64,000 nt of DNA from Pristiophorus japonicus. Its lineage: Eukaryota. A model generated the notes under the pieces. The model searched no databases, was not told where the DNA came from, and saw only the letters and a list, made by a program, of their open reading frames with translations. Below, piece by piece: positions 10,731-57,768 of the stretch. The DNA is taken from assembly GCF_044704955.1 (NCBI RefSeq), contig NW_027254394.1, positions 310,001 to 374,000 of the forward strand, read 5' to 3'. A program made the translations under genes and the position numbers. Every line of letters begins with the position of its first letter. Position 1 is the stretch's first letter.

Positions 10731-10922
10731 TGGCCGGAGGTGGACCTGGAGGGGCACCTGGCCAGGGGTGGACCTGGAGGGGCACCTGGCCAGGGGTGGA
10801 CCTGGAGGGGCACCTGGCCAGGGGTGGACCTGGAGGGGCACCTGGCCAGGGGTGGACCTGGAGGGGCTCCTGGCCAGGGGTGGACCTGGAGGGGCTCCTG
10901 GCCAGGGGTGGACCTGGAGGGC
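10731..10922. repeat. 28-bp minisatellite, about 7 units (GGCCAGGGGTGGACCTGGAGGGGCACCT)
   Basis: Tandem units read directly from the sequence. Confidence 0.97.
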
Positions 10923-12474: not shown

Positions 12475-12475
12475 G

Positions 12476-13693
12476 GCCAGAGGTGGGTCTGGAGGGGCTC
12501 CTGGCCAGAGGTGGGTCTGGAGGGGCTCCTGGCCAGAGGTGGGTCTGGAGGGGCTCCTGGCCAGAGGTGGGTCTGGAGGGGCTCCTGGCCAGAGGTGGGT
12601 CTGGAGGGGCTCCTGGCCAGAGGTGGGTCTGGAGGGGCTCCTGGCCAGAGGTGGGTCTGGAGGGGCTCCTGGCCAGAGGTGGGTCTGGAGGGGCTCCTGG
12701 CCAGAGGTGGGTCTGGAGGGGCTCCTGGCCAGAGGTGGGTCTGGAGGGGCTCCTGGCCAGAGGTGGGTCTGGAGGGGCTCCTGGCCAGAGGTGGGTCTGG
12801 AGGGGCTCCTGGCCAGAGGTGGGTCTGGAGGGGCTCCTGCCCAGAGGTGGGTCTGGAGGGGCTCCTGCCCAGAGGTGGGTCTGGAGGGGCACCTGCCCAG
12901 AGGTGGGTCTGGAGGGGCTCCTGGCCAGAGGTGGGTCTGGAGGGGCTCCTGGCCAGAGGTGGGTCTGGAGGGGCTCCTGGCCAGAGGTGGGTCTGGAGGG
13001 GCTCCTGGCCAGAGGTGGACCTGGAGGGGCTCCTGGCCAGAGGTGGACCTGGAGGGGCTCCTGGCCAGAGGTGGACCTGGAGGGGCTCCTGGCCAGAGGT
13101 GGACCTGGAGGGGCTCCTGGCCAGAGGTGGACCTGGAGGGGCTCCTGGCCAGAGGTGGACCTGGAGGGGCTCCTGGCCAGAGGTGGACCTGGAGGGGCTC
13201 CTGGCCAGAGGTGGACCTGGAGGGGCTCCTGGCCAGAGGTGGACCTGGAGGGGCTCCTGGCCAGAGGTGGACCTGGAGGGGCTCCTGGCCAGAGGTGGAC
13301 CTGGAGGGGCTCCTGGCCAGAGGTGGACCTGGAGGGGCTCCTGGCCAGAGGTGGATCTGGAGGGGTACCTGCCCAGAGGTGGGTCTGGAGGGGTACCTGC
13401 CCAGAGGTGGATCTGGAGGGGTACCTGCCCAGAGGTGGATCTGGAGGGGCTCATGGCCAGAGGTGGATCTGGAGGGGTACCTGCCCAGAGGTGGATCTGG
13501 AGGGGCTCATGGCCAGAGGTGGATCTGGAGGGGTACCTGCCCAGAGGTGGGTCTGGAGGGGCTCATGGCCAGAGGTGGATCTGGAGGGGCTCATGGCCAG
13601 AGGTGGATCTGGAGGGGCTCATGGCCAGAGGTGGACCTGGAGGGGCTCCTGGCCAGAGGTGGATCTGGAGGGGTACCTGCCCAGAGGTGGATC
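12476..13693. repeat. 28-bp G-rich minisatellite, about 43 units (GGCCAGAGGTGGGTCTGGAGGGGCTCCT and variants)
   Basis: Direct tandem array; it produces the spurious ~400-aa ORFs in all three plus frames. Confidence 0.98.
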
Positions 13694-14004
13694 TCGTTCC
13701 TCCTGTCCATTAGTTGCCCCCCCACCCCACCACCGCACTACAGGACGAGCAGCCAATGAATAGTACGAGTGGTGCTGCATGCACAACTGCATCAGTAAAA
13801 TGATCAGGCAGGACAAATATCACAAGCTCTTTAATGTCAGTAAGTCCTGTTGCAGAAATGTTGGTGAAGAAGAAAAACTGTTAGTTGAATATTTTGGGTT
13901 CCTGATTTTAGTATGAAAACCCACCTATGAACCCGATGATCAATCTCTTGATGTGATGTTTGTAGTTTGAACAACTGGATGAAATCACCTCTGTGACAAC
14001 TACC

Positions 14005-16540: not shown

Positions 16541-16897
16541 CGGTTACATTCAGCCGGGTTCCATTTCCATAGATTGTTCCCCAAATACCACAAATATAGA
16601 CAGTGCTGTCTCTGTGCTGCACGCCTCTGATGGTCAGAATGTAGCTGTTAATGGAAACATCTCTGGAAAGCTCAAACTGTTTAAAGAAGCCATTGTTTTG
16701 TTAAACCTCGCCAGCTACAGAAAGAGTCAATAAAGGTTTGCTTTTCCCAATTGATGGGTGGTACCAGTGTACAGTATATTTATCCACACGGTCATTCACA
16801 TTGCTGCTCTCCAGGGCACAGCGAAACTACACCATCCCATCTTCGAGCATCGTCACAACTTCTGGGGACTGGATAAGAACCGGACTTGCCTTTAGAC
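16541..16897 (-). pseudogene. VJ-type Ig V-set exon, copy V1 (type A), pseudogene
   Basis: GLKASPVLIQSPEVVTMLEDGMV*FRCALESSNVNDRVDKYTVHWYHPSIGKSKPLLTLSVAGEV*QNNGFFKQFELSRDVSINSYILTIRGVQHRDSTVYICGIWGTIYGNGTRLNVT; phase-1 GTAAGT donor; stops at 16827-29 and 16701-03; acceptor AG mutated to GG. Confidence 0.93.
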
Positions 16898-22562: not shown

Positions 22563-23495
22563 CATAGAAACAAAGAAAATAGGTGCAGGAGTAGGCCATT
22601 CGGCCCTTCGAGCCTGCATCATAGTTGATCATTCCCTCAGTACCCCTTTCCTGCTTTCTCTCCATACCCCTTGATCCCTTTAGCCATAAGGGCCACATCT
22701 AAATTCCTCTTGAATATATCCAACGAACTGGCATCAACAACTCTCTGCGGTAGAGAATTCCACAGGTTAACAACTCTGAGTGAAGAAGTTTCTCCTCATC
22801 TTAGTCCTAAATGGTCTACCCCTTATCCTAAGACTGTGTCCCCTGGTTCTGGACTTCCCCAACATCGGGAACATTCTTGCCGCATCTAACCTGTTCTGTC
22901 AGAATCTTATGTTTCTATGAAATCCCCTCTCATCCTTCTAAACTCCAGTGAATAGAGGCCCAGTCGATCCAGTCTCTCCTCAGATGTCAGTCCTGCCATC
23001 CCAGGAATCAGTCTGGTGAACCTTCGCTGCACTCCGTCTGTAAAGTCCTTACTCTACAGCATGAAACCACACGAGGCACATTCTGGGGACAAGGTCACTC
23101 TGACCGTAACTCTTTATTCACAGGACTCCAAAGACGCTGACCCTGCGTGGGACCTCCCTCTTTATACCTGTGTGTTCAGGTAAGGAGTGTCTCCCACTAG
23201 TTCACCCCTTGTGGTCAAGGTGTGCATCTAGGTTGAGTGTATCCAGTAATACAGTGGTGTTACATTCTGGTTACATACATGACACCCTCAATAGCAAGAA
23301 CGTCCCTTCTTCAGATTACAAGATCAAAACTGAACACAATATTCCAGGTGAGGCCTCACCAAGGCCCTGTACAACTGCCCCTATACTCAAATCCCCTAGA
23401 TATGAAGGCCAACATACCATTTGCCTTCTTCACCGCCTGCTGTACCTGCATGCCAACTTTCAATGACTGATGCACCATGACACCCAGGTCTCGTG
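22563..23495 (-). mobile_element. CR1 3' fragment interrupted by a solo LTR
   Basis: Reverse-complement CR1 3'UTR and RT C-terminus. Confidence 0.9.
23039..23284 (-). mobile_element. Solo LTR (246 bp, Gypsy-like)
   Basis: TG...CA ends; 5-bp TSD CCGTC/CCCTC; TATAAA and AATAAA on the minus strand; removal restores the CR1 sequence. Confidence 0.85.
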
Positions 23496-23496
23496 C

Positions 23497-24120
23497 CGGA
23501 GGCGGGTGGGGAGAGGCTGAGGGCCGGGGCCGGCCTGCAGTGAGCTGGGGGGCGGGTGGGGAGAGGCTGGGGGCCGGGGCCGGCCTGCAGTGAGCTGGGG
23601 GGCGGGCGGGGAGAGGCTGAGGGCCGGGGCCGGCCTGCAGTGAGCTGGGGGGCGGGCGGGGAGAGGCTGAGGGCCGGGGCCGGCCTGCAGTGAGCTGGGG
23701 GGCGGGTGGGGAGAGGCTGAGGGCCGGGGCCGGCCTGCAGTGAGCTGGGGGGCGGGCGGGGAGAGGCTGAGGGCCGGGGCCGGCCTGCAGTGAGCGGGGG
23801 GGGCGGGCGGGGAGAGGCTGAGGGCCGGGGCCGGCCTGCAGTGAGCGGGGGGCGGGCGGGGAGAGGCTGAGGGCCGGGGCCGGGGCCGGCCTGCAGTGAG
23901 CGGGGGGGCGGGCGGGGAGAGGCTGAGGGCCGGGGCCGGGGCCGGCCTGCAGTGAGCGGGGGGGCGGGCGGGGAGAGGCTGAGGGCCGGGAAGGGCCTGT
24001 AGTGAGCGGGGGGCGGGTGGGGAGAGGCTGAGGGCCGGGAAGGGCCTGCAGTGAGCGGGGGGCGGGCGGGGAGAGGCTGGGGGCCGGGGCCGGGGCCGGC
24101 CTGCAGTGAGCGGGGGGCGG
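23497..24120. repeat. GC-rich ~50-bp minisatellite, about 12 units
   Basis: GAGAGGCTGAGGGCCGGGGCCGGCCTGCAGTGAGCTGGGGGGCGGGCGGG recurs every 50 nt from 23511. Confidence 0.95.
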
Positions 24121-24329
24121 ACCCGGGCGGGGGATGGATGGATGGGGTTAGGGGGGAGTGGGCTCCAGGGGCCGAGGTGGTGCGGGGGGGGGTGAGTGTG
24201 TGGCGGCAGTGGGCTGGAGGAGGCAGTGAGCGGGGCGGGGATAAACTCCCTCCAACACTCCCCAGTCAGGGCAGTAACTGCGGCCAATGGCAATGAACCA
24301 TGACACTGCAGGCCCTCAGCCTCTGCCCC

Positions 24330-24545
24330 CCGGCCCCCAGCCTCTCCCCGCCCGCCCGGGCCCGGGCTCAGCCTCCGCTCACCGGCCGCCATCGCCTCCA
24401 ACCGCGGCGCCGCTCCGCTGTTCCCGCCTCATCCACTCGCCATTCTGATTGGTCCCCAGCGCCGCGCGGGGCGGGGCGGGGTGGGGCCGGTGGGCGGGGC
24501 CCCCGCGCGGGGCGGGGACGGTTGGGCGCGCGGGAAGTTTGAACC
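24330..24545. promoter_or_regulatory. CpG-island promoter with GC boxes, CCAAT box, E2F sites and a CDE/CHR-like element
   Basis: TTCCCGCC at 24421, ATTGG at 24448, several GGGGCGGGG, and GCGCGGGAAGTTTGAA at about 24528-24543; undepleted CpG. Confidence 0.65.
24383..24392 (-). CDS. Candidate first coding mini-exon (M-A-A-, phase 1) of an unidentified gene
   Basis: gcgATGGCGGCCG|GTGAGC: strong Kozak context plus a consensus donor directly downstream of the CpG promoter; no exon 2 identified. Confidence 0.45.
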
Positions 24546-26973: not shown

Positions 26974-29410
26974 GTGGGGCCGAAATTGCCCCTTCCGATA
27001 AAGCCTCTTGCTGCCTGAAAGCAGCGGCTATGGGGCGGCGCGGAATGGCCGGGGACTCACGGCGGACTGGCCGATGTTCGTGGCATTGCCCTCAAAGGTT
27101 TTTGCTGCATTGTGAAGATCCGCCCCGCTCCAGCAGATGCGTCGTTAACGATGTCATCCGAGCACGCACCGCATCGGACCCGCCCCGGAAGGTAAATTCA
27201 TTCAAAAAGTCTTCCAGCCGCCTGTCGATGCCAACGACAGTTTTTTGGGTCGGTACACAGTGCTAACTCAAGACCACCAGCAGCCTTTAAAAGTGTGTTG
27301 CATGTAGCAGCATTCTGCACTGACCCTCCCACTCCAGATATTGGGTGAAATGGAGAGAAGGCAGGGTGCACAGGAGGCAGATGCTTGCCAGCAGCAGGCT
27401 GCAGAGGGTGAGGAGCAGCAAGAGCATGAAGGAGAAGGCAATGAGGCAGCTGCCATCGGAAGACGTGAACATAGACATGGCGGGGAGAAGGCCCTATCGT
27501 CCAAGGGTGTACAGACAGCAGTTCTCATACATGGACCTGACGGATGACCAGTGTCTCCGGAGACTTCGATTCCTGTGCAATCTCCTGCAGCCAGACCTCC
27601 AGCCTCGAACAAAGTTGAGGACAGCGCTGACCGTTGCATCCAAGGTGACCATAGCACTCCATTTCTATGCGACTTGATCATTCCAAGCTGCTACAGTAGA
27701 CATCTCGAACATTTCACATTTCACCGCGCGTCGCTCCATCATTAAGTGACAGATGCTCTCTATAAGAGAAGGAGGGACTAGTTATCCTTCCCGATGAGCA
27801 GGGACAAACAGTTGGTGTGGAGACCAGATTCGGGAGGTGTGTGGGCTTCCCCAGGGTTCAGGGTGCCATTGACTGCACCCACGTCGCAATGAGGGCACCA
27901 CAGAACAATCCCGAGATCTTCAGAAACTGCAAGGGATTCCACTCCCTCAATGTGCAGCTGGTGTGTGACACCCCACCACAAAATCATGGCAGCTGATGCC
28001 CGGTATCCTGGCAGCAGCCTCGTTGCTTTCATCCAGCGCCAGAGCGGTGCGCCTGACGTGTTTGTTGGACCAAGCCAAGGTTGCGGCTGGGTCCTTGGAG
28101 ACAAGGGCTACCCACTGTGCACTTGGCTGCTGACTCCCCTTCACAACCCCAGGACTGCTGTGCAGCAAGCCGGCAATGACTCTCATTCAGCCACCAGCTG
28201 CTTCATTGAGCAGTGCATCAGAATCCTTAAACAGAGGTTCCATTGCCTGGATCACTCTTCCAGTACTCGCCTGAGCGGGTCTCCCTATTCGTGGTCGTCT
28301 GATGCATGCTTCATAACCTGGCAATCATGAGGGCACAACCATTGGAGGACGAGGCACCAGTATCAGCTGAGGAGGAGGACCAGGAGGAGGAGGACCAGTA
28401 CCAGTACCAGGAGGAGGAGGAGGCACAGGAGCACGATGCACAGAAGGAGGAGGAGGTGCAGGAGGAGGACCAGGATGCGGGTCGCTGGCCAAACTGGAGG
28501 CAGCGTCGCCATCCAAACCCTGCAAGGGAAGTGCAAAGCCGTCTCATTGTTGCTCGTTTCTGATGAGTTCATGCGCACTTCACCCTTCACCTGTGCATCT
28601 CCATGGCCAACCCAATGAGCCCTCTCACACATCATTACCCACAGTGAAATGAGACACCTGCACAGATATTGAAACACAAAATAAAGATTTATTACACAAG
28701 AAAGAATGGTGCAAAAAAACATACACCATCAATTATCATCCTTGTGCATTTGCTTATTCTTACACAAACCTATTCTTGAACTATGCCCCAGTGTCTCGCC
28801 TGTGGCTGCATCATGCGTCTGGGAAGGCTGCTGTGTTTCAGGTGTAGAAGCTGCAGATGTCCTTCTAGGACGCCCTCGACCAGCTCTTTCCCTGGAAGTG
28901 CCAGCTGCAGACTGCACCGCACTCTCCTCGGTGCATTCAGTCGGGATTGGCTGGGGCGATTCCATGCTTGATGGCAATGGCGGACTGAGAGGTCTCAGCT
29001 CAGGACTACTGAGAGAGCACATCAGAATCCTGGTCCGAGGAGCCTGCTCCACTCCCCCGGGGCAGCACCTCACCATCCCCACCAATCAGCTGGAGCACAG
29101 GTCAGTGGTGTGGCACGACACCGGAAGTTCCCCGTGGACCGTGGTGGACCCAGCCGCGATGGCAACAGTCAGATCTCGCTTGGCATCCAGCTGAGACTGC
29201 ATGAGAGCAGATACAGTCTCAATGCCACCAGAGGCTACAGCAGTAAGATGCTCCGTAAGACAGCAGCATGAGCCTGGAGCAGCTGAGGGAGAGTTAAACA
29301 TCAGCGTCTCCGGGACAACGGAGGCAGCGCGAGCCTGGTGCACCTGTTCGGCATGTGGCGTGGGTAATGGTGGCGGCCACTCTGACTTCTCCCACAATCC
29401 TTCGAGAAGC
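26974..29410 (+). mobile_element. PIF/Harbinger transposon fossil: DDE transposase (+, about 27340-28563) and opposite-strand second gene remnant
   Basis: [52 protein letters not shown] and IEQCIRILKQRF match the HARBI1-like DDE nuclease; GGGGCCGAAATTG terminus. Confidence 0.92.
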
Positions 29411-30527
29411 TAAAATGGAGCAGGACCCCAGCGTGTTTCATCCCATTCCCTCATCACACCTCAGATCTCCCACCACCTCTCCTGAAGGCACTGCTCAGTG
29501 CCGAGCTTACAGCTCACACCCCACTATAGGCAATTAGGCCCATACAGTAGTGCCTGGTCTCCAATCGTCTCAGACCCCCTTGCCACTGGACCAAGACCTT
29601 GCTCTGCTAAGCCCGTGTGGTAGCCGGTGTTCGGTGGCCACCCCACCGTAAAAAAACTCACGCACATGTATCTTCCACCCTTCAAATGAAGTTTGGGACT
29701 TGGAACGTCCGGCCCCTCATGGACAACCCCAACAGCGACAGACTGGAATGCCGCACCGCCATCGATGCCCGGGAACTTAGAGGCTTCGATATCGACAGTG
29801 CCGCCCGAAGCAGATCCGGTGAGTAGGGGAAGGCCAGATCAAAGAACAAGGTGGAGGTTACACCTTCTTCTGGGAAGGCAAATGGTCTACAGGGCTGTAG
29901 TGATACCCGCCCTCCTATATGCTCAGGAGACGTGGACCATATACAGTAGAGACCTCAAATCGCTGGAGAAATACCACCAACGATGTCTCCGCAAGATCCT
30001 GCAAATCTCCTGGGAGGACAGACGCACCAACATCAGTGTTGTCAATCAGGCCAGCATCGAAACACTGACCACATTCGACCAGCTCCATTGGGCAGGCCAC
30101 ATTGTCCGCATGTCCGACACAAGACTCCCAAAGCAAGCGCTGTACTCGGAACTCCGACACAGCAAGCGAGCCCCAGGTGGACAGAGGAAACATTTCAAGG
30201 GCACCCTCAAAGCCTCCTTGATAAAGTGCAACATCCCCACTGACACCTGGGAATCCCTGGGCAAAGATTGCCTTAAGTGGAGGAAGAGCATCCGGAAGGG
30301 CGTTGAGCACCTCGAGTCTCGTCACCGAGAGCATGCAGAAAACAAGCGCAGGCAGCGGAAGGAGCGTGCGGCAAACCAGTCCCACCCACCCTTTCCCTCA
30401 ATGACTGTCTGTCCCACCTGTGACAGAGACTGTAATTCCCCTATTGGACTGTTCAATCACCTGAGAACTCACTTCTAGAGTGGAAGCAAGTCTTCCTCGA
30501 TTTTGAGGGACTGCCTATGATGATGAT
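29411..30527 (+). mobile_element. RTE-clade LINE, internally deleted
   Basis: MKFGTWNVR (APE N-terminus) joined to the C-terminal LLYAQETW..HQRCLRKIL..CPTC..HLRTH; ATGATGATG tail. Confidence 0.9.
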
Positions 30528-30656
30528 ATTGCCTGTTTTGAACAAAATTAAAAACAGTTATCTGCAGTAATCTCGTGTAAAATGTGACAATTCAGACATT
30601 GAGTTTATCCCGGGCATATCTGAGCCATACAGACTGGTAGGTCTCAGGATTGTGTG

Positions 30657-33600
30657 AATCAGAATCGTGGAAATTCATGGCACAGGAGGCAATTCGACCC
30701 ATCGTGTCTGTGCCGGAGGACTAAGAGCTATCCAGCCTAATCCCACTTTCCAGTTCTTGGTCTGTATCCTTGTAGGGTATGGCACTTCAAGTGCATATCC
30801 AAGTACTTTTTAAATGTGATGAGGGTTTTTGCCTCTCCCAGCCTTTTAGGCAGTGAATTCCAGAGCCCCACTGCTCTCTCAGTGGAAAAAGTTCTCAACT
30901 CCCCTCTAGTCCTTCCAATCACCTTAAATCTATACCCCCTGGTTGTTGACCCCTCTGCTAAGGAAAATACAGGCAACCCTCGATTATCCGGGTCCCACGG
31001 GGATTGAGCTATTTCGGGTAAACGATTTTTCCGTTATGGCGAGTTGACATTTATAAGTTAAAACTTGAATGAATCAATACAAACAGTAACAAAAGATAGA
31101 CATTACCAGCATGCATGTACAGGTTCTGTGCCTGGAACCCGGTGCCAGCACCATCCCCGTTCCCAACGTCAGCGGCGGCCGCGAGAGACAGCGGCTGCAG
31201 CAGCGCGCACACACCTCAGCAAAGTAAAGGCAGAGGAGGGTGATTTTTATGGTGAGTGAGAGAGTGTGTGTGAGAGAGAAAATGTGCGAGATTGTGTGTG
31301 CGAGAGAGAATGAGCAAATATAAATGAGCACAGTGTTTGGAAGGCGATTTTTCCAAATTATTTGGAGCTGTCTTTTCACTTGTTAGCCACAGAATTTTAA
31401 ATCCCGATACAACGGTTTCCCGTTGGATCCGTGTACGGATAATCGAGAGTTGCCTGTAGGTCATTCCTATCCACTCTTATCTTGGCCCCTCATCATTTTA
31501 TACACCTCAATAAGTCTCCCCTCAGCCACCTCTGTTCCAAAGAAAACAACACCAACCTATCCAATCTTTCTTCATAGCTAAAATTCACCAGTCATGAAAA
31601 AATTCTCGTAAATTTCCTCTGCACACTCTCTAGTGCAATTACATCTTTCCTGTAATGTGGTGACCAGAACAGTATGCTGTGCTCTAGCTGTGGCCTATCA
31701 AGTGTTTTAATGCAGTTCTAGCATAAGCTCCCTGCTCATATATTCTATGCCTCAGCTGAGAAAGGAAAGTATCCCGTATGCCTTCTTAATCACCGTATCT
31801 ACCTGTCCTGTTACCTTCAGGGATCTGTGGACATGCATTTCAAGAACCCTCTATTCCTCTACACTTCTCCGTATTCTACCATTTATTGTGTATTCCCTTG
31901 CCTTGTTAACCCTCCCCAAATGGAATATCTCACACTTCTTCGGATTGAATTCCATTTGCCACCTTTCTGCCCACTTGTCCAGTCCATTGGCATCTTCCTG
32001 CAGTATGCCTCAGTGCCAACCACACGGCCAATTTTTGTATCATCTTCAAACTTCTTAATCATACCTCCTATATTGGAATCTAAATCATTGACGCATACCA
32101 CAAAAAGCAAGGGACCTACTACTGAGCCCTGCGGAACCCCATTGGAAACAGCCTTCCAGTCACCAAAACACCCGTCGACCATTACCTTTTGCTTCCTGCA
32201 ACTGAGACAATTTTGGATCCAACTTGCCACTTCCCCTTGGATCAGATGGACTTTTACTTTCCTGACCAGTCTGCCAGGTTGGACCTTGTCAAATGCCTTG
32301 CTTAAAATCCATGTAGACAAACGCACTACCCTCATCAACCATCCTTGTTACCTCCTCAAAAATAATCAAGTTAGTCAGACATGACCTTCCTTTAACAAAT
32401 CCATGCTGATTGTCCTTGATTAATTCATGCCTTGCTAAATGATGATTAAGACTGTGCCTCACAAATGTTTCCAACAATTTTCCCATCACCGAGGTTAGGC
32501 TGACTGGCCTGTAATTACTTGCTCTATCCCGTTCTCCTTTTTTAAACAATAGTACAACATTAGCAGTCCTCCAGTCCTCCAGCATCACGCCTGTAGCCTG
32601 AGAGGATTGGAAAATGATGGTCAGAGCCTCTGCTATTTTCTTCCTTGCTTCTCCTAACAGTCTGGGATACATTACATCCGGGTCTGGCGATTTATCTACT
32701 TTCAAGGATGTTAAACCCCTTAATATTTCCTCTCTCACTACGGTTATTTCATCTAATATTTCACACTCCTCCCCCTTAACTACAATGTTTGCATTGTCCC
32801 TCCTTTTTGTGAAGACAGATGCAAAGTATTCATTAAGAACCATACCCATATCCTCCATCACAATCTTCCTTTTTTGGTCTCCCACAGACTCTACTCTTTC
32901 TTTAGTTATCCTCATGCTCTTTATATAGTTATAAAACATTCTTGATTTTACTTGCCAATATTTTTTCATATCTTTGCATTCCTCATTTTTTAATTTTACC
33001 CCTGCACTTTCTATACTCCTCTAGGCTTTCTGCAGTATTTAGCTCTTGGTATCCAACATACACTTCCCTTTTTTGCCTTATCCCACTGTATGTCCCTTGA
33101 CATCCATGGAGTTCTAGATTTGGGAGTCCCACCACTGCTCCAACACTGATTTACCTTCGTTGCTGTTTGAAGTCCACTTTTGCTAAGTCACATCTCGGCT
33201 TAGTAAAATTGGCCTTTCCCCAACTGAGAACTTTTACTCTTGGTTTATCTTTCTCCTTTCCATAACTACACTAAATCTAACTGAATTATGATCACTAACA
33301 CCAAAATGCTCTCCCACTGATACCCCTACCATCTGTCCAGCATCATTCCATAAGTCCAGAACCGCCCCTCTCTTGTTGGGCTTGCTACGACTGACTAAAA
33401 ACGTTCTGCTGAATGCATTTTATGAATTCTGTACCCTCTGTACGTTTTACACTGATTCTATCCCAGTTAATGTTAGGGTAGTTGAAATCCCCTACTATTT
33501 CTGCCCTATTGTTTTTGCACTTCTCAGAAATGTGCTTATATTTGCTCTTCTCTCTTCCTCTGATGATTTGGGGGTCTATAGTACACTCCCAGCAGTGTGA

Positions 33601-33775
33601 TTGCCCCTTTTTTGTTCTTCAGTTCAACCCATAAGGCCTCATTTGATGATCTTTCTAACGTATTATCCCTCCTCACAGCTGTAATTGTTTCCAATATTTC
33701 GACTGCCCCTTCCATTTTTTATCCCCCTCTCTATCTCATCTGAAAACCCTGTAACCAGGAATGTTTTGCTGCCAT
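30657..33775 (-). mobile_element. CR1 LINE ORF2 (second subfamily) with a nested MITE
   Basis: Minus-strand ORFs with KSPDPD, QHGFVKGRSCLTN and GVPQGSVVGP. Confidence 0.92.
30970..31456. mobile_element. Tc1/mariner (Tigger/pogo-like) MITE
   Basis: TIRs CAGGCAACCCTCGATTATCCG and CGGATAATCGAGAGTTGCCTG; TA TSD at 30968-69 and 31457-58. Confidence 0.92.
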
Positions 33776-33777
33776 TC

Positions 33778-36700
33778 GTGGCAAGTAGAATCAGGGACAA
33801 CCCAAAGATGTTTTATAAATATATTAAGAGCATGAGGATAACTAGAAAAAGAGTGGGGCCTATTAGATACCATAAAGTAAATCTGTGTGTGGAGGCAGAA
33901 GATGTGGGTATGATTCTTAATGAATACTTTGCATCTGTTTTCACAAAAGAGAGGGGCGATGAAGACTTTGCAATGAGGGAGGAGGAGTGTGAAATATTAG
34001 ATGAGATAAACATAGTGAGAGAGGAAGTATTAAGGGGCTTAACAACTTTGAAAGTGGATAAATCCCCAGGCCCGGATGAAATGTATCCCTGTTAAGAGAA
34101 GCAAAAGAAGAAATAGCAGAGGCTCTGACCATCATTTTCCAATCCTCTCTGGCTACAGGTGTGGTACCAGAGGACTGGGAGGACTACTGATATTGTACCT
34201 TTGTTTAAAAAGGGAGAAATGGATAGACCAAGTAATTACAGGCCAGTCAGTCTTACCTCAGTGGTGGGAAAAATCCTGAGGGACATGATAAATCTTCATT
34301 TGGAAAGACATGGATTAATCAAGGATAGTCAGCACAAATTGGTTAAGGGAAGGTCATGTCTGACTAACTTGATTGAATTTTTTGAGGAGGTAACAAGGAG
34401 GGTCAAAGAGGACGGTGTGTATGATATAGTGTATATGGATTTTAGCAACGTTTTTCATACGATCCCACATGACAGACTGGTCACGAAAGTAAAAGCCCAT
34501 GGGATCCAGGGCAAAGTGGCAAGTTGTATCCAAAATTGGCTCATGGGCAGGAAGCAATGGGTAATGGTTGATGGGTGTTTTTGTGCCTGGAAGGCTGTTT
34601 CCAGTAGGGGTCCGCAGGGCTCAGTGCTGGATCCCTTGCTTTTTGTGGTATATATCAATGACTTGGTCTTGAATGTTGGGGGTATGATTAAGAGGTTTGT
34701 AGATGACACTAAAATAGGCTGTGTGGTTGATAATGAAGAAGCAAGCTGCGGATTGCAAGGCGATATCAATGTACTGGTCAGGCGGTTGGAACAGTGGAAA
34801 ATGGATTCAATCCGGATAAGTGTGAGGTAATGCATTTGGGGAGGTCTAACAAGGCAAGGGAATACACAGTAACTGGTACGACACTGAAAAGTGTAGAGGA
34901 ACAAAGGGACCTTGGAATGCAGGTCCACAGATCCCTAAAGGTAGTAGGCCAGGTAGATAAGGTGGTTAAGAAGGCAGAGAGAATACTTGCCTTTGTTAGT
35001 CGAGGCATGGAATACAAGAGCTAGGAGGTTATGCTTGAACTGTAAAAGCACAGGTTAGGCCGCAGCTGGAGTACTGTGTGCAGTTCTGTCACCCCATTAC
35101 AGGAAAGGAGGGTAGCTAATGTAACACCATTTTTTAAAAAAGGAGAGAGAAAATGGGTAATTATAGACCGGTTAGCCTGACATCAGTAGTGGGGAAAATG
35201 TTGGAATCAATTATTAAAGATGAAACAGCAGCACATTTGGAAAGTAGTGACAGGATCGGGCCAAGTCAGCATGGATTTATGAAAGGGAAATCATGCTTGA
35301 CAAATCTTCTGGAATTTTTTGAGGATGTAACTAGTAGAGTGGAGAAGGGAGAACTAGTGGATGTGGTGTATTTGGACTTTCAAAAGGCTTTTGACAAGGT
35401 CCCACACAAGAGATTGATGTGCAAAATTAGAGCAAATGGTATTGGGGTAATGTATTAACGTGGATAGAGAACTGGTTGGCAGACATGAAGCAGAGAGTCG
35501 GGATAAACGGATCCTTTTCTGAACAGGCAGGCAGTGACTAATGGGGTGCTGCAGGGTTCAGTGCTGGGACCCCAGCTATTTACAATATAGATAAATGATT
35601 AACATGAAGGAATTGAGAGTAATATCTTCAAGTTTGCAGATGACACTAAGCTGGGTGGCGGTGTGAGCTGTGAGGAGGATGCTAAGAGGCTGCAGGGTGA
35701 CTTGGACAGGTTAGGTGAGTGGGAAAATGCATGGCAGATGCAGTATAATGTGGATAAATGTGAGGTTAGCCACTTTGGTGGCAAAAACATGACAGCAGAA
35801 TATTATCTGAATGGCGGCAGATTAGGAAAAGGTGCAACGAGACTTGGGTGTCATGGTACATCAGTCATTGAAAGTTGGCATGCAGGTACAGCAGGTGGTG
35901 AAGAAGGCAAATGGCATGTTGGCTTTCATAGCGAGGGGATTTGAGTATAGGAGCAGGGAGGTCTTACTGCAGTTGTACAGGGCCTTGTTGAGGCCTCACC
36001 TGGAATATTGTGTTCAGTTTTCGTCTCCTAATCTGAGGAAGGATGTTCTTGCTATTGAGGGAGTGCAGCGAAGATTCACCAGGCTGATTCCCGGGATGGC
36101 AGGACTGACATGAGGAGAGACTGGATCGACTGGGCCTCTATTCACTGAAGTTTAGAAAGATGAGAGGAGATCTCATAGAAACATATAAAATTCTGACGGG
36201 ACTGGACAGGTTAGATGCAGGAAGAATGTTCCCGATGCTGGGGGAGTCCAGAACCAGGGGTCACAGTAAGGATAAGGGGTAAGCCATTTAGGACCGAGAT
36301 GAGGAGAAATCTGTTCACTCAGAGAGTTGTTAACCTGTGGAATTCTCTACCACACAGAGTTGTTGATGCCAGTTCGTTAGATATATTCAAGAGGGAGTTG
36401 GCCCTTACGGCTAAAGGGATCAAGGGATATGGAGAGAAAGCAGGAAAGGGGTACTGAGGTGAATGATCAGCCATGATCTTTTTGAATGGTGATGCAGGCT
36501 GGAAGGGCCAAGTGGCCTACTCCTGCACCTATTTTCCATGTTTCTATGAAAGATGTGATTGCACTGGAAAGGGTGCAGAGGAGATTTACAAGAATGTTGC
36601 CTGGGCTGGAGAATTTTAGCTTTGAGGAAAAATTGGAGATGCTGGGTCTGTTTTCTTTGGAACAGAGGAGGCTGAGGGGAGACCTGATTGAGGTGTATAA

Positions 36701-37059
36701 AATTATGAGGGGCCTAGATAGAATAGATAGGAAGGACCTGTTTCCCTTTGCAGAGGGGTTAACAACCAGGGGACATAGATTTAAAGTAATTGGGAGGAGG
36801 TTTAGAGGAGATATTAGGGGAAATGTCTTTACCCAGAGGGTAGTGGGAATCTGAAACTCTCTGCCTGAAAGAGTGGTAGAGGCAGGAACCCTCACCACAT
36901 TTAAAAAATACTTGTATGTGCACTTAAAGTGCCGTAACCTACAGGGCTACGTTCCAAGAGCTGGAAAGTGGGGTTAGGCTGGATAGCTCTTGGTCGGCCG
37001 GTGCGGACACGATGGGCCAAAATAACCTCCTTCCATGCTGTAAATTTCTATGATTCTAT
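33778..37059 (+). mobile_element. CR1 LINE (second subfamily) split by a younger CR1
   Basis: RT motifs at 33778-35107 resume at 36548 (KDVIALERVQRR). Confidence 0.9.
35108..36547 (+). mobile_element. Nested 5'-truncated CR1
   Basis: RT plus 3'UTR flanked by a GAAAG duplication (35103-35107 and 36548-36552). Confidence 0.9.
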
Positions 37060-37502
37060 ACGTAGCTTTCCCTTGATTATTATGGTCTGTTTTCCCAGAA
37101 TTAATGTGACATAGCTCTTGTTGGAAAACATCAGAGCCAATAATTTACTTAACCCTTGAAACCAATGGAAAATGTTGAATCAGAAAATGAAATGTGCTGG
37201 CTACTTTTAACCTGGTTACAATACTCAGTGTGAACAAAGGAGAGGATTTGTGTGTGTGCGGCTGTGGGTGTTAATGATTTAGTAAAAGCTGTTCATCACC
37301 ACACAACATTCAATCCATCACCGTACTGGGCTACTGATGGCCCGTTACCACACTGGGCCCATTGCTCTCGGTCTATTCCAGGCAGTGTTGCTGCTATGGA
37401 TCCATTTTAGGTGAAGGTTTCCCACAGTTTCACCATTTATACAAAAAGTGACAGATATCACACGCTTTGCCTCTACCCTTGCCAAGTGTGAGAGAAACAT
37501 AC

Positions 37503-37545
37503 CTTTAAGCTCACTGTATATGGACTGATCCGATTCCTTCAATGC
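37503..37545 (-). CDS. Candidate 43-nt cytoplasmic-tail exon with an ITIM (ALKESDQSIYSELK)
   Basis: Acceptor ctctgttccctgttAG and donor AAG|GTATGT; S-I-Y-S-E-L fits the (S/I/V/L)xYxx(I/V/L) consensus; unique sequence on the same strand as the V exons. Confidence 0.55.
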
Positions 37546-37566
37546 CTAACAGGGAACAGAGCAATG

Positions 37567-40359
37567 ATAGAAACATAGAAACATAGAAAACAGGTGCAGG
37601 AGTAGGCCATTCGGCCCTTCGAGCCTGTACCACCATTCAATAAGATCTTGGCTGATCATTCACCTCAGTACCCCTTTCCTGCTTTCTCTCCATATCCCTT
37701 GACCCCCTTTAGCAGTTAGGGCCATATCTAACTCCCTCTTGAATATATCTAACGAACTGGCATCAACAACTCTGTGTGGTAGAGAATTCCACAGGTTAAC
37801 AACTCTCTGAGTGAAGAAGTTTCTCCTCATCTCGGTCCTAAATGGCTTACCCCTTATCCTTAGACTGTGACCCCTGGTTCTGAACTTCCCCAACATTGGG
37901 AACATTCTTCCTGCATCTAACCTGACTAGTCCCGTCAGAATTTTATATGCCTCTATGAGATTCTCCCCTCATTCTTCTGGATCCCGGGAATCAGTCTGGT
38001 GACCCTTCGCTGCACTCCCTCAATAGCAAGCACGTTCCTCAAATTAGGAGACCAAAACTGCACACAATACTCAAGGTGTGGTCTCACCAAGGTCCTGTAG
38101 AACTGCAGCAAGACCTCTCTGCTCCTATACTCAAATCCCCTTGCTATGAAGGCCAGCATGCCATTTGCTTTCTTTGCTGTCTGCTGTACCTGCATGCCTA
38201 ACTTCAAAGACTGATGTACCATGATACCCAGGTCTCATTGTACCTCCTCTTTTACTAATCTGTCACCATTCAAATAATAATCTACCTTCCTGTTTTTGCC
38301 ACCAAAGTGGATAACCTCACATTTATCCACATTATACTGCATTTGCCCATTCACCTAACCTGTCCAAGTCCCCTGCAGCCTCTTAGCATCCTCTTCGCAG
38401 CTCGCTCTGCCACCCATCTTAGTGTCATCTGCAAACATGGAGATATTACATTCAATTCCTTCGTCAAAGTCATTAATGTATATTGTAAATAGCTGGGGTC
38501 CCAGCATTGAACCCTGCAGCAGCCCACTAGTCACTGCCTGCCATTCTGAAAAGGACCCGTTTATTCCCACTCTTTGCATCCTGTCGGCCAACATCTCTAT
38601 CCACGTCAATATATTACCCCCAATACCATGTGCCTTAATTTTGCACACTAGTCTATTGTGTGGGACATTGTCAAAAGCCTTTTGAAAGTCCAAATACATC
38701 ACATCCACTTATTCTCCCTTATCCACTCTACTAGTTATATCCTCAAAAAGCTCGAGAAGATTTGTCAAGCTTGATTTCCCGTTCATAAATCCATACTGAC
38801 TTGGTTCGATCCTGTCACTGCTTTCCAAATGCGCTGCTATTTCATCTTTAATAATTGATTCCAGCATTTTCCCCACCACCGATGTCAGGCTAACCGGTCT
38901 ATAATTCCCTGTTTTCTCTCCCTCCTTCTTTAAAAAGTGGTGTTACATTAGCTACCCTCCAATCCATAGGAACTGAATCAGAGTCCATGGAATGTTGGAA
39001 AATGACCACCAATGCATCTTCTATTTCTAGAGCCACTTCCTTAAGTACTCTGGAGTGCAGACTATCAGGACCTGGGGATTTATCGGCCTTCAGTCCCTTC
39101 AATTTCCCTAACACCATTTCCTGACTAATAAGGATTTCCCTCAGTTCCCCCTTCTCGCTAGACCCTCTGTCCCATAGTATTTTCGGGAGGTTATTTGTGT
39201 CTTCCTTAGTGAAGACAGAACCAAAGTATTTTTTCAATTGGTCTGCCATTTCCTTGTTCCCCATTATGGATTCCCCTGATTCTGACTGCAAGAGACCTAC
39301 ATTAGTCTTCACTAATATTTTTCTCTTCACATATCTGTAGATGCCTCTGCAGTCAGTTTTTATGTTCCCTGCAAGCTTACTCTCATACCCTATTTTCCCC
39401 CTCCTAATTAAACCCTTAGTCCTCCTCTGCTGAATACTAAATTTCTCCCAGTCCTCAGGTTTGCTGCTTTTTCTGGCCAATTTATATGCTTCTTCCTTGG
39501 ATTTAACACTTTCCCTAATTTCCCTTGTTAGCCACGGCTGAGCCACCTTCCCTTTATTTTTACGCCACACTGTGATGTACAATTGTTGTAGTTCATCCAT
39601 GTGATCTTTAAATGTCTGCCATTGCCTATCCACCGTCAACCCTTTAAGCATCGGTCGCCAATCTATCCTAGCCAATTCACGTCTCATACCGTCGAAGATT
39701 CCTTTCCTTAAGTTCAGAACCCTAGTCTCTAAATTAACTGTGTCACTCTCCATCTTAATGAAGAATTCTACCATATTATGGTCACTCTTCCCCAAGGGGC
39801 CTCGCACGACCAGATTGCTAATTAATCCTCTCTCATTACACAAGACCCAGTCTAGGATGGCCTGCTCTCTTGTTGGTTCCTCGACATATTGTTCTAGAAA
39901 ACCGTCCCTTATACACTCCAGGAAATCCTCCTCCACAGTATTGCTACCAGTTTGGTTAGCCCAATCAATATGTAGATTAAATTCACCCATGATAACTGCT
40001 GTAACCTTATTGCACGCGTCCCTAATTTCCTGTTTGATGCCATCCCCAACCCCCATACTACTGTTTGATGGCCTGTACACAACTCCCACGAACGTTTTCT
40101 GCCCTTTGGTTCTTCGCAGCTCTACCATATAGATTCCACATCATCCACGTTAATGTCCTTCCTTACGATTGCGTTAATCTCCTCTTTAACCAGTAACGCT
40201 ACCCCACCTCCTTTTCCTTCCTGTCTATCCTTCCTGAATATTGAATACCCCTGGATATTGAGTTCCCAGCCTTGGTCACCCTGGAGTATGTCTCCGTAAT
40301 CTCAATTACATCATATCCATTAACATCTATCTGCGCAGTTAATTCGTCCACCTTATTGC
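37567..40359 (-). mobile_element. CR1 LINE ORF2 (5'-truncated)
   Basis: ORF 40128-38899 (endonuclease/tether), RT fragments, and an (ATAGAAAC)n tail at 37567. Confidence 0.95.
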
Positions 40360-40468
40360 ATTAAGTTTACCAGCGGTTTTTGTGATATTAATCAGATACT
40401 GATCAATAAATCCATGTGTAAGAGGTTATTCCTTCTATTCAGGTTAATATAATGTAAACTGTATTTAC

Positions 40469-40813
40469 TGGTTACATTGAGCTGGGTTCCGTTCCCGCTG
40501 ATATCGCCCCACACTTTACAGTAATAGGCGACAGTGTCACTGGGCTGCACTTCTGTGACTGTCAGAATGAAGCTGTCATTGGAGGTGTCTCTGGAAGGCT
40601 GGAGATGGTCAGTGGAACCTGGGCTCCCGCGTGTGCTGCCACTTGCCTCATGTGTTAAAACCCACTCCATATCTTGCCCCAGGAGTTGCCGGTACCAGTG
40701 GACATCGGTGTCACTCACTCTGGCGTTCCACATGGTGCATTGTAACCGTGCCGTGTGACCCTCTGTGACAAGTTCCAGGCTCGGAGACTGGGTCAGGACA
40801 GGGACAACTGCAC
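40469..40813 (-). CDS. VJ-type Ig V-set exon, copy V2 (type B), intact reading frame
   Basis: 345 nt, phase 1 at both ends, acceptor ccattaaAG, donor GTAAAT; GAVVPVLTQSPSLELVTEGHTARLQCTMWNARVSDTDVHWYRQLLGQDMEWVLTHEASGSTRGSPGSTDHLQPSRDTSNDSFILTVTEVQPSDTVAYYCKVWGDISGNGTQLNVT; canonical B-strand Cys, C-strand Trp, DxxxYYC and GxGT. Confidence 0.93.
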
Positions 40814-41149
40814 CTTTAATGGTAAAATATCAATCACTTAAAAACCGGTCTGAAGGTTACAAAGTGTCCCCGGTATTTAAAGGGCCAGTCCAGGCAGTAC
40901 AAGTTAGACGGAGATCAAAGATTGCAATCCTGGAGCAGTGCGGTTAGTCAGTTACTGATTCCGATCCAAAATGTGGAAAACCTGTGTTGTGAACCCTGTC
41001 TTTTATTTGAACAAGTTCACCAATATAAGAGAAGGTTCTTTTTCTTTTCATTCACCGGCTGGCGTTGGCACGGGTACAATGGGCCGAATCAGTGTCCTTC
41101 GGTGCTGTCTGATTCTATCATGGAAACTGGTAAAGGGAGACCTGGGGAG

Positions 41150-55389: not shown

Positions 55390-56127
55390 CACTCCAAGGT
55401 CCCTCTGTTCCTCTACACTTCTCATTGTCCTACCATTTATTGTATATTCCCTTGCCTTGTTAGCCCTTCCCAAATGCATTACCTCACACTTCTCCGGATT
55501 GAATTCCATTTGCCACTGTTCTGCCCACGCGACCAGTACATTGATATCTTTCCTACAGTCTACAGCTTTCTTCTTCATTATCAACCTTACAAAAAATGGT
55601 AGTATCATCTACAAACTTCTTAATCATACCCTCTATATTCAAGTCTAAATCATTGATATATACCACAAAAAGCAAGGGAACTTGTACTGAGCCCTGTGGA
55701 ACCCCACTGGAAATAGCCTTGCAGACACAAAAGCACCCATCGACCATTACCCTTTGCTTCCTTCCTCCAAGCCAATTTTGGATCCAACTTGTCACTTTGC
55801 CCTGTATCTCATGGGCTTTACCCTTCATGACCAGTCTACCATGTGGGACCTTATCAAAAGCCTTGGTAAAACCCATATATACTACATCGTACGCACTACC
55901 CTCATCAAACCTCCTTGTTACCTCCACATAAATTCAGTCAAGTTAGTCAGACACTATCTTCCCTCAAAAAATCCATGTTGACTGTCGTTGATTAATCTGT
56001 GTATTTCGAAATGAAGATTTATCCTAGCCCTCAGAATGTTTTCCCATAATTCTCCCACCACCGACTTTAGGCTGATAGGCCTGCAATTCTCGGTCTATCC
56101 CTTTCTCATTTTTTAAACAACAGTATA
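55390..56127 (-). mobile_element. CR1 RT fragment (second subfamily)
   Basis: [24 protein letters not shown]. Confidence 0.9.
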
Positions 56128-56990
56128 ATGGGCAGGGGGAGAGAGAGAGAGAGAGAGACAGTGAACAGGCGGGGAGAAAGAGAGAGGCCACGATTGGGCA
56201 GGTGAGAGAGAAAGGCCATGATTGGGTGGAAGAGAGAGAGAGACCACGATCGGGTGGGGGGGAGAGAGAGAAAGGCCATGATTGGGCGGGAGAGAGATAG
56301 AGACCATGAACAGGTGGGGAGAGAGAGAGGGCTCGATTGGGTGGGGAGAGAGAGAGAGAGGCCATGATCGGGCGAGGGGGAGAGAGAGAGAGGCCACGAT
56401 TGGGCAGGGGAGAGAGAGAGGCCACGATCGGGCAGGGAGAGAGAGAGGCTACAATCGGGCAGGGAGAGAGAGAGGCTACGATCGGGTGGGGGAGAGAGAG
56501 AGGCCACGATCGGGCAGGGAGAGAGAGAGGCTACGATCGGGCAGGGAGAGAGAGAGGCCACGATTGGGCAGGGGAGAGAGAGAGGCTACGATCGGGCAGG
56601 GAGAGAGAGAGGCCATGATCGGGCAGGGACAGAGAGAGAGGCCACGATCGGGCAGGGGAGAGAGAGAGGCCACGATCGGGCAGGGGAGAGAGAGAGGCCA
56701 CGATCGGGCAGGGGAGAGAGAGAGGCTACAATCGGGCAGGGAGAGAGAGAGGCTACGATCGGGCAGGGAGAGAGAGAGGCCACGATTGGGCAGGGGAGAG
56801 AGAGAGGCTACGATCGGGCAGGGAGAGAGAGAGGCTACAATCGGGCAGGGAGAGAGAGAGGCTACGATCGGGCAGGGAGAGAAAGAGGCCATGATTGGGC
56901 GAGGGAGAGGGGGGAGAGAGAGAGAGAGAGACCACGATCGTGTGGGGGGAGGTGCGGGAGGGGAGGGAGAGAGAGGGCATGATTGGGGGA
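56128..56990. repeat. Purine-rich ~27-28 bp minisatellite (GGCCACGATCGGGCAGGGGAGAGAGAGA), about 30 units
   Basis: Direct tandem units with a variable (GA)n stretch. Confidence 0.95.
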
Positions 56991-57419: not shown

Positions 57420-57768
57420 TGGTTACTTTCAGCCGGGTTCCATTTCCATAGATTGTTCCCCAAAATACCACAGATATAGACCGCGCTGTCTCTGGGCTCC
57501 ACGCCTCTGATGGTCAGAATGTAGCTGTTACTGGCAACATCTCTGGAGAGCTGAAACTGCTCAGAGAAACCGTGTGATTGGTCAACCCTGCCATCTGCAC
57601 AATGAGTAAATATTTTGTGTTTCCTATCCTGTGAGAGGTACCAGTGTACAGTATATTTATCCACATTCACATTGCTGCTCTCCAGGGTACACCAAAACTT
57701 CACCGTCCCACCCTCGGGCACCGTCACAACTTCTGGGGACTGGATAAGAACCGGACTTGCCTTTAGAC
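57420..57768 (-). pseudogene. VJ-type Ig V-set exon, copy V3 (type A); +1 frameshift in CDR3 (real or a sequencing error)
   Basis: Acceptor ttcacAG, donor GTAAGT; 349 nt (3n+1); GLKASPVLIQSPEVVTVPEGGTVKFWCTLESS..VHWY..SRDVASNSYILTIRGVEPRDSAVYICGI, then an extra T (A-run 57462-57465), then WGTIYGNGTRLKVT. Confidence 0.92.

What the first reader, a model, noticed from the sequence alone, without database searches (positions are those of the whole stretch)
37503..37545. ITIM mini-exon downstream of the intact V2 exon
Seen: a well-formed 43-nt exon encoding ALKESDQSIYSELK. Known: SxYxxL is an ITIM, and such short tail exons typify inhibitory IgSF receptors; Ig and TCR chains do not have them. Inference: the VJ genes encode inhibitory membrane receptors. 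Caveat: subtracting the CR1 leaves only about 130 nt between the V2 donor and this acceptor, with no C or TM exon, and the phases mismatch. Either the middle of the gene was deleted at the CR1, or direct splicing gives V+SIEGIGSVHIQ*, a soluble single V domain. A motif this short can arise by chance.
Basis: partly seen in the sequence, partly recalled or inferred. Interest (0 to 1): 0.7.

Follow-up and report, generated by a model that had tools for sequence, protein, structure and literature searches.

The report
Orphan ITAM half, dead shark receptor
This short exon is real, but in intact sister genes it encodes the second half of an activating-type signal motif (ITAM) rather than a lone inhibitory one; here it is a leftover in a likely dead, much-copied gene of a shark and ray receptor family whose near-identical outer parts carry either activating-type or inhibitory-type tails and probably work as on/off immune receptor pairs.

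Summary
The 43-nt exon is real, but sequence alone could not show it: 2 such hits in the window against 1.3 in shuffles. Homology does. Four intact sister genes in this genome, and shark and ray proteins, join it at phase 0 to an exon ending ...ATYM, giving YMAL-x7-YSEL, a classical split ITAM. The 'ITIM, hence inhibitory' inference therefore fails for this exon. The family's inhibitory-type tail (YYADIQF...TEYAAI) sits on other exons in 18 other copies.

The copy also has a V1 frameshift, an interrupted last exon and no leader found. This unit occurs 19 times; V1 is out of frame in 18. It is a pseudogene relic, and a soluble decoy is unlikely.

The wider family (2-4, up to 9, joined-VJ domains, no C, uncharged TM, ITAM or ITIM/ITSM-like tails, ectodomains 95% identical within the species) was not found in 9 paper searches; three key papers were unread. 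No RNA test was possible.

The parts
37503..37545 (-). 43-nt tail exon (third cytoplasmic exon of intact sister genes): second half of a split ITAM; here ALKESDQSIYSELK, ALQQPDQSIYSELK in intact genes
   Evidence: 4 fixed differences from intact-type copies at exon positions 6, 7, 10, 13
37546..37575 (-). last ~30 nt of the 102-nt intron that splits the ITAM in intact genes (acceptor kept)
37567..40360 (-). 5'-truncated, decayed CR1-type LINE (starts inside ORF2; 3' (TTTCTATG)n tail meets TTCTAT of the intron) bridging the deletion of TM, cytoplasmic exon 1 and exon 2
40361..40468 (-). first ~108 nt of the V2 intron; found only in the 19 deleted copies
   Evidence: 19 of 19 matches are these units
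40469..40813 (-). V2: open single-exon V-set domain with joined J-like G strand (GNGTQLNVT), phase 1-1
57420..57768 (-). V1 of the same gene copy, 349 nt, out of frame near the YIC-WG motif; V1-V2 splicing stops 103 nt into V2
30533..37502 (-). intron after the tail exon, colinear with intact sister genes apart from extra repeats
30527..30532 (-). stub of the terminal exon (GNK* in intact genes): acceptor and 6 nt kept, then an insertion; the rest of the exon is not found in the window
16541..16897 (-). V1-type exon of a separate neighbouring fragment, with TAG and TAA stops

Best explanation
The exon is the second half of a split ITAM-pattern motif, stranded in a likely dead copy of a shark VJ-domain membrane receptor gene whose transmembrane exon and first two tail exons are missing at a CR1 element. 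Shown: intact sister genes run V1-V2(-V3)-TM-cyt1(YENV)-cyt2(..ATYM)-cyt3(ALQQPDQSIYSELK)-GNK*, with canonical splice sites and matching phases; the window copy lacks TM, cyt1 and cyt2, has V1 out of frame and a broken last exon, and this unit exists 19 times. Inferred: a CR1 inserted by target-primed reverse transcription about 30 nt before this acceptor (TTCTAT microhomology) and the insertion or a later recombination removed the middle of the gene once, before the unit was amplified. Inferred for the intact genes: Src-family phosphorylation of the two tyrosines, 11 residues apart, would dock Syk/ZAP-70 directly, without a charged-TM adaptor, with YENV as a GRB2-type site; they would be the activating partners of about 18 ITIM/ITSM-like paralogues with about 95% identical ectodomains.
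For: Intact model at G000:C699 has AG/GT sites and consistent phases over 8 exons and translates to the ITAM tail; TM+cyt1 found 4 times, cyt2 5 times, cyt3 region 25 times. 22 of 104 homologues carry YxxL/I-x6-8-YxxL/I and all 22 have spacer 7, across sharks and rays. PMC4536121 (passages): classical ITAM is D/E/NxxYxxL/I-x7-YxxL/I, always on two exons with the boundary in the first module; PMC2110893 (passages): typical split by a phase 0 intron. P0059 has N at Y-3. No charged residue in the 19-residue TM window of 20 of 20 ITAM+TM proteins. Dead-copy signs: V1 out of frame in 18 of 19, V2 frameshifted in 6 of 19; pN/pS 0.79 (V2) and 0.85 (V1) among these copies; no same-strand leader match nearer than 179 kb upstream of any of the 19; last exon interrupted in 3 of 3 units examined. 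Pairing: ectodomain identity ITAM vs inhibitory-type models 95.4-98.2% in this species, 90.8% horn shark, 79% Mobula, with TM+tail 19-31% where alignable.
Against: No RNA or protein-binding data; signalling is read from motifs only. SIYSEL formally fits the ITIM consensus and 21 of 22 homologues keep S at Y-2. 12 of 19 V2 copies are full length and open, and one unit (C3248:220053) has both V1 and V2 open. The leader search would miss a divergent leader. No undeleted sister with the same V2 intron survives, so the left breakpoint and the deleted length cannot be mapped, and insertion-deletion versus CR1-CR1 recombination is undecided. Some of the 19 copies may be haplotypes or assembly duplicates (C2571 is identical over V2 and the tail exon). 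pN/pS may be confounded by conversion between V exons.
Confidence: 0.85

Rival explanations
1. The deleted units are expressed as secreted decoys: a leader splices to V2 (skipping V1, or using the one open V1) and V2 splices to this exon in the shifted frame, giving V+S(I/N)EGIGSVHIQ*; amplification to 19 copies would reflect use.
For: Splice sites of V2 and the tail exon are intact in all 19 copies; the stop lies 8 nt before the exon end, so it could escape decay; 12 of 19 V2 are full length and open, and one unit has V1 and V2 open; leader-to-V2 phases would match. Secreted members exist in paired families such as zebrafish NILT (passages).
Against: No leader match within 56 kb here or 179 kb for any copy; last exon interrupted; V2 frameshifted in 6 of 19; pN/pS near 0.8; the same stop in that frame is present in intact genes too, so it is not an adaptation; 0 of 138 fetched models end in GSVHIQ and the 62-200 aa search gave 3 proteins, none of this form.
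Confidence: 0.08
2. One reading: SIYSEL works as an ITIM and the genes bearing it are inhibitory (alone or as a dual ITIM/ITAM tail).
For: SIYSEL fits S/I/V/LxYxxI/V/L (consensus); S at Y-2 in 21 of 22 homologues; uncharged TM is typical of inhibitory receptors (recalled).
Against: A second YxxL exactly 7 residues upstream in 22 of 22, split by a phase-0 intron as in classical ITAMs; the family has a separate inhibitory-type tail with about 20 residues between tyrosines in 36 of 104 homologues and 18 genomic copies; in the window there is no TM at all.
Confidence: 0.05
3. The dead units are kept as donors of V-exon sequence for gene conversion into live receptors.
For: V exons of the 19 units differ by 3.0-3.1% versus 1.0-1.5% for flanking introns; 11 of 36 V2 polymorphisms are shared with 25 non-deleted V2 exons, with 0 fixed differences, although their introns do not align.
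Against: Non-deleted V2 exons are less diverse (1.6%) than the dead ones, which fits decay plus incoming conversion as well; direction was not tested; CR1 segments in the same units reach 2.1-2.9%. It does not give this tail exon a role.
Confidence: 0.1
4. Chance motif between chance splice sites.
For: Shuffles give 1.27 such hits per window.
Against: Same exon in intact genes and in proteins of many elasmobranch species.
Confidence: 0.01

Closest known systems
Paired CEACAM receptors (CEACAM1 vs CEACAM3/dog CEACAM28; PMC2110893, passages)
   Same: Near-identical V-type ectodomains on ITIM/ITSM or ITAM tails; ITAM built from small exons and split by a phase-0 intron; signs of conversion; decayed copies in the cluster.
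   Different: Ectodomain here is only tandem antigen-receptor-like VJ domains; no CEACAM hit among named homologues; analogy, not shown orthology.
Teleost NILT receptors (bioRxiv 10.1101/2022.04.21.489081, passages)
   Same: Cluster of V-only receptors with 1-6 domains, many ITIM forms, few with their own ITAM, some secreted.
   Different: NILT domains carry an extra Cx3C/Cx6C/Cx7C pair; V2 here has only two cysteines and a J-like GxG strand; that paper has 0 mentions of shark or cartilaginous.
ITAM adaptors CD3, CD79, FcR-gamma, DAP12 (PMC4536121, passages)
   Same: Same motif pattern, spacer 7 and two-exon split.
   Different: No acidic TM residue; the ITAM sits on the putative ligand-binding chain.
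Teleost NITR (PMC2442602, start of abstract in a search listing; rest recalled)
   Same: Multigene cluster, V domain with J-like strand, mostly ITIM.
   Different: NITRs have V plus an I domain and activate through a charged TM and adaptor (recalled); here all domains are VJ-type and TM is uncharged.
Elasmobranch non-rearranging VJ genes UrIg/UrIg2 and NKp30/NCR3 (PMC12227049 abstract and part of results; PMC10751288 passages)
   Same: VJ in one exon; leader split from the V exon.
   Different: UrIg2 has nine C1 domains; neither paper mentions ITAM or ITIM (0 occurrences). NKp30 is one VJ with a charged TM (recalled).
SIRP-alpha / PD-1 type ITIM+ITSM tails and NFAM1-type V+ITAM receptors (both recalled)
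   Same: The inhibitory-type tail resembles the SIRP-alpha pair (several homologues are auto-named SHPS-1-like); the activating-type tail resembles NFAM1.
   Different: No C1 domains as in SIRP; resemblance not tested by alignment or synteny.

Membership tests
ITIM (stand-alone inhibitory motif) | S/I/V/L-x-Y-x-x-I/V/L consensus | tested here: met
   SIYSEL; consensus as given
ITIM (stand-alone inhibitory motif) | Lies in a cytoplasmic tail behind a TM and is not one half of a YxxL-x6-8-YxxL pair | tested here: not met
   Window copy has no TM; in intact genes it is the second module of a spacer-7 pair
ITIM (stand-alone inhibitory motif) | Recruits SHP-1/SHP-2/SHIP when phosphorylated | not testable with these tools
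   needs binding or cell assay
Classical ITAM (intact sister genes) | D/E/NxxYxxL/I-x7-YxxL/I | tested here: met
   NATYMAL-QQPDQSI-YSEL; spacer 7 in 22 of 22; residue at Y-3 is N in P0059 but D, S, P or other in some relatives
Classical ITAM (intact sister genes) | Two exons, phase-0 boundary inside the first YxxL | tested here: met
   YM|AL, 42-nt exon, 102-nt intron, 43-nt exon; rule from PMC4536121 and PMC2110893
Classical ITAM (window copy) | Both modules present | tested here: not met
   cyt2 has 5 full matches in the genome, none in this unit
Classical ITAM (intact sister genes) | Docks Syk/ZAP-70 tandem SH2 and activates | not testable with these tools
   inferred from motif only
ITAM adaptor subunits (CD3/CD79/FcR-gamma/DAP12) | Acidic residue in the TM | tested here: not met
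   none in the best 19-residue hydrophobic window of 20 of 20 ITAM+TM homologues
NILT | Extra Cx3C/Cx6C/Cx7C motif in the V domain | tested here: not met
   V2 has two cysteines only; feature
NITR | V plus intermediate (I) domain; activating forms with charged TM (recalled) | tested here: not met
   P0059, P0038 and the C699 model hold only VJ-type domains and an uncharged TM
UrIg/UrIg2, PRARP (VJ-C1) | C1-set domains after the VJ | tested here: not met
   V exon is followed by V or TM exon in C699, C691, C3961; PF07654 listed for 3 of 104 hits
NKp30/NCR3 | Single VJ with basic TM residue, MHC-linked (recalled) | tested here: not met
   2-4 VJ domains, uncharged TM; MHC linkage not tested; atlas rank 2 is an 'NCR3-like' cluster at 0.95, a lead only
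Rearranging Ig/TCR | Separate V and J segments with RSS, and a C exon | tested here: not met
   V and J-like strand are one exon ending in a donor; no C exon in intact models; RSS not scanned separately
Paired immune receptors | Similar ectodomains with opposing tails in one cluster | tested here: met
   95.4-98.2% ectodomain identity between tail classes; both tail classes on C9 5.8-6.25 Mb and on C3961
Paired immune receptors | Shared ligand and opposing signalling in leukocytes | not testable with these tools
   no expression or ligand data

The most novel reading that the evidence does not exclude
Sharks and rays have a large, unnamed paired-receptor family built only of germline-joined, antigen-receptor-like VJ domains (2-4, up to 9), in which activating members carry their own GRB2-type site and classical ITAM, like a one-chain TCR+CD3 or a natural CAR, while near-identical partners carry ITIM/ITSM-like tails; a candidate for the elasmobranch counterpart of NITR/KIR-type leukocyte receptors.
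Probability: 0.5. Interest if true: 0.72.

Novelty: new variant of a known kind. Interest (0 to 1): 0.5.

Why it matters
The exon in this window is only a relic, but it leads to a family that joins two things usually kept on separate chains in jawed vertebrates: an antigen-receptor-like VJ domain and a classical two-exon ITAM. If the motifs work as predicted, cartilaginous fish have a rapidly expanding activating/inhibitory receptor cluster (about 18 inhibitory-type, 4 activating-type and 19 dead copies in this assembly) that could serve NK-like or myeloid recognition, and that bears on what non-rearranging VJ receptors did around the origin of Ig and TCR. The intact gene models give concrete targets for expression, ligand and signalling tests. 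It is also a practical warning: a lone phase-0 exon with SxYxxL may be half an ITAM.

Tried and rejected
RNA test: no RNA holder listed for window 40440-41100, so no reads were laid; this is no evidence either way. Chance control: first version faulty, redone. The V1 end used was one base too long, so its V1+V2 translation is void; corrected. Leader search: none in the window or 56 kb beyond V1. Left breakpoint: no undeleted sister with this V2 intron. PDB sequence search gave only antibody fragments in the best 60. Tail-only search found 6 proteins, all sharks. Profile search: of 10 hits looked up, 8 were elasmobranch and 2 were Ig lambda-like V arrays from a snake and a tree shrew; no chimaera or bony-fish member was seen among named hits, but only 10 were named. 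Papers: 10 searches, 9 aimed at the family showed no description of it; Ohta 2019, Flajnik 2012 and a DOI recalled for Kinlein 2021 were not held; Dornburg and Yoder 2022 was seen only as a reference and not requested. No supplements were opened; these papers or their supplements may list the family. UrIg2 and CD28-family papers were checked and do not match. Earlier scan notes: 3 in this genome, none related; none by sequence. No structure or complex job was sent, as no binding claim depends on one.

Full report
Observation. Window 37545-37503 (-) is a 43-nt stretch between ...ccctgttAG and GTatgt that reads ALKESDQSIYSELK in phase 0. V2 (40813-40469) is an open V-set exon (Pfam V-set E 1.9e-14) ending in phase 1; direct splicing gives SIEGIGSVHIQ*, with the stop 8 nt before the exon end. 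Such a motif between splice-like sites is not rare: 2 of 62 candidates in the window, 1.27 on average in 30 shuffles. Reality had to come from homology.

Homologues. V2 finds 104 longer proteins, nearly all labelled as sharks or rays; the closest are labelled Pristiophorus japonicus and two of their tails match this genome at 100%. They are chains of VJ-type domains, a TM and one of several tails. By my pattern classes: 22 of 104 carry YxxL/I-x6-8-YxxL/I (20 with a TM), 36 carry an ITIM+ITSM-like pair (YYADIQF...TEYAAI), 27 have a TM and another or truncated tail (some with two YxN sites, a few missed members of the first two classes), 19 have no TM. All 22 have a spacer of exactly 7, and both tyrosine modules align across 12 sequences from sharks and rays. 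The window peptide is the homologue of ALQQPDQSIYSELK, which follows ...NATYM in these proteins.

Intact sister genes. In this genome the TM+cyt1 block occurs 4 times (C3961, C691, C699, C9:6.235 Mb), the cyt2 exon 5 times and the region of our exon 25 times. At C699 the exons V1, V2, V3, TM, cyt1 (74 nt), cyt2 (42 nt), cyt3 (43 nt) and terminal have AG/GT sites and matching phases and translate to ...TTADYENVF...EDPNATYMALQQPDQSIYSELKGNK* (its leader lies beyond the contig end or was not found). The intron between cyt2 and cyt3 is 102 nt and phase 0, falling inside the first module, YM|AL. PMC4536121 (passages) gives the classical ITAM as D/E/NxxYxxL/I-x7-YxxL/I, always on two exons with the boundary in the first module; PMC2110893 (passages) notes the typical phase-0 split. 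The exon is thus the 3' half of an ITAM-pattern motif. YxN is described as a GRB2/GADS motif in PMC11599192 (passages). The inhibitory-type tail is a different exon, found 18 times. Ectodomains of the two classes are 95.4-98.2% identical in this species, 90.8% in horn shark and 79% in Mobula (6 pairs).

The window copy. Downstream of the exon the window is colinear with intact genes for 7 kb. Upstream, homology stops about 30 nt into the intron, where the (TTTCTATG)n tail of a 5'-truncated CR1 meets TTCTAT; the CR1 5' end abuts 108 nt of V2 intron. TM, cyt1 and cyt2 are absent. V1 (57768-57420) is 349 nt, so V1-V2 splicing stops 103 nt into V2. The terminal exon is interrupted 6 nt after its acceptor, as in two other units checked. 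No leader was found in the window or up to 56 kb beyond V1, while the next gene downstream has leader matches about 10 and 27 kb from its V1.

The amplified unit. Nineteen copies share the V2-intron remnant, the CR1 junction and four fixed changes in the exon, so the deletion happened once, before amplification (inference). V1 is out of frame in 18 of 19; V2 is frameshifted in 6, 3 nt short in 1 and full length in 12. pN/pS among copies is 0.79 for V2 and 0.85 for V1. The nearest same-strand leader match is at least 179 kb upstream for 8 copies and absent for 11. Some copies may be haplotypes. None of 138 fetched protein models ends in the shifted-frame peptide or carries the altered exon. No RNA run was listed.

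Mechanism. Most likely (0.85) this is an orphan ITAM half in a pseudogene. For intact genes I infer ligand-induced clustering, phosphorylation of the two tyrosines and direct docking of Syk/ZAP-70, opposed by the ITIM/ITSM-like paralogues; none of this signalling was tested. Rivals: secreted decoy (0.08), true ITIM function (0.05), conversion donor (0.10, not exclusive): V exons of the dead units are 2-3 times as diverse as flanking introns and share 11 of 36 V2 polymorphisms with 25 non-deleted V2 exons.

Comparison. It works like paired CEACAMs or teleost NILTs but fails their defining domain features, and those of NITR, UrIg, NKp30 and the ITAM adaptors (see membership table). Solved-structure hits are antibody V domains; atlas neighbours are the family's own cluster, then NCR3-like, TIGIT-like, CD7 and JAM-like clusters, leads only. 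Beyond elasmobranchs the profile falls to Ig lambda-like V arrays among the 10 hits named. Nine paper searches found no description of the family; three likely papers could not be read, so novelty is uncertain.

Verdict. Observation confirmed; interpretation partly right (tail exon of a VJ membrane receptor, deletion at the CR1) and wrong in sign (activating-type, not inhibitory). The exon itself is a relic; the family it exposes is the interesting part. Interest 0.5.

Noticed in passing
G000:C9:4442208-4433058 (-); loci L007-L008: A V2-type VJ exon continues without an intron into about 2,930 residues of 14-residue repeats (GEIFRNGKDLNGTS-like, resembling the V domain's own GDISGNGTQLNVTS end) with 203 N-glycosylation sequons, ending at a GT donor. 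P0071 (skate, with TM, 80 sequons) and P0101 look related: a possible giant N-glycan stalk grown from the J-like strand. TM exon not found in the next 20 kb with the queries used.
   Followed up: partly
V1 57420-57768 and V2 40469-40813 and their 18 sister units: V exons are 3.0-3.1% diverse versus 1.0-1.5% for adjacent introns, and V2 has no fixed difference from non-deleted V2 exons whose introns do not align: likely exon-limited gene conversion.
   Followed up: partly
G000:C3248:220053-203576 (-); L050, L031: The only deleted-type unit with both V1 and V2 in frame; best place to look for a secreted V1-V2 product, though no leader was found within 20 kb by translation or 179 kb by DNA search.
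   Followed up: partly
homologues P0065, P0066, P0077, P0078, P0082, P0089: A third tail class with two YxN sites and no ITAM or ITIM pair; not searched for in this genome.
   Followed up: no
G000:C9:5720319, C9:5691760, C3961:119324, C691:30044: Further decayed ITAM-type copies: a TAG in cyt3 and no TM match; an isolated cyt3; V3 donor AT in C3961 and GC in C691.
   Followed up: partly
window 16541-16897 (-): Second V1-type exon with TAG and TAA; belongs to a 5-copy subfamily.
   Followed up: partly
G000:C9:655985, 1012210, 4585941; C23:8901847: Divergent single-exon VJ domains: three on C9 look like further family members; the C23 one (AVYYDNHVHFGNG) looks like a different joined VJ gene.
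   Followed up: no
window 10559-13756, 23359-24428, 56109-56979: GC-rich tandem repeats giving long spurious open frames.
   Followed up: no
window 27893-29191: Open frames resembling a Harbinger-type transposase fragment (recalled resemblance).
   Followed up: no
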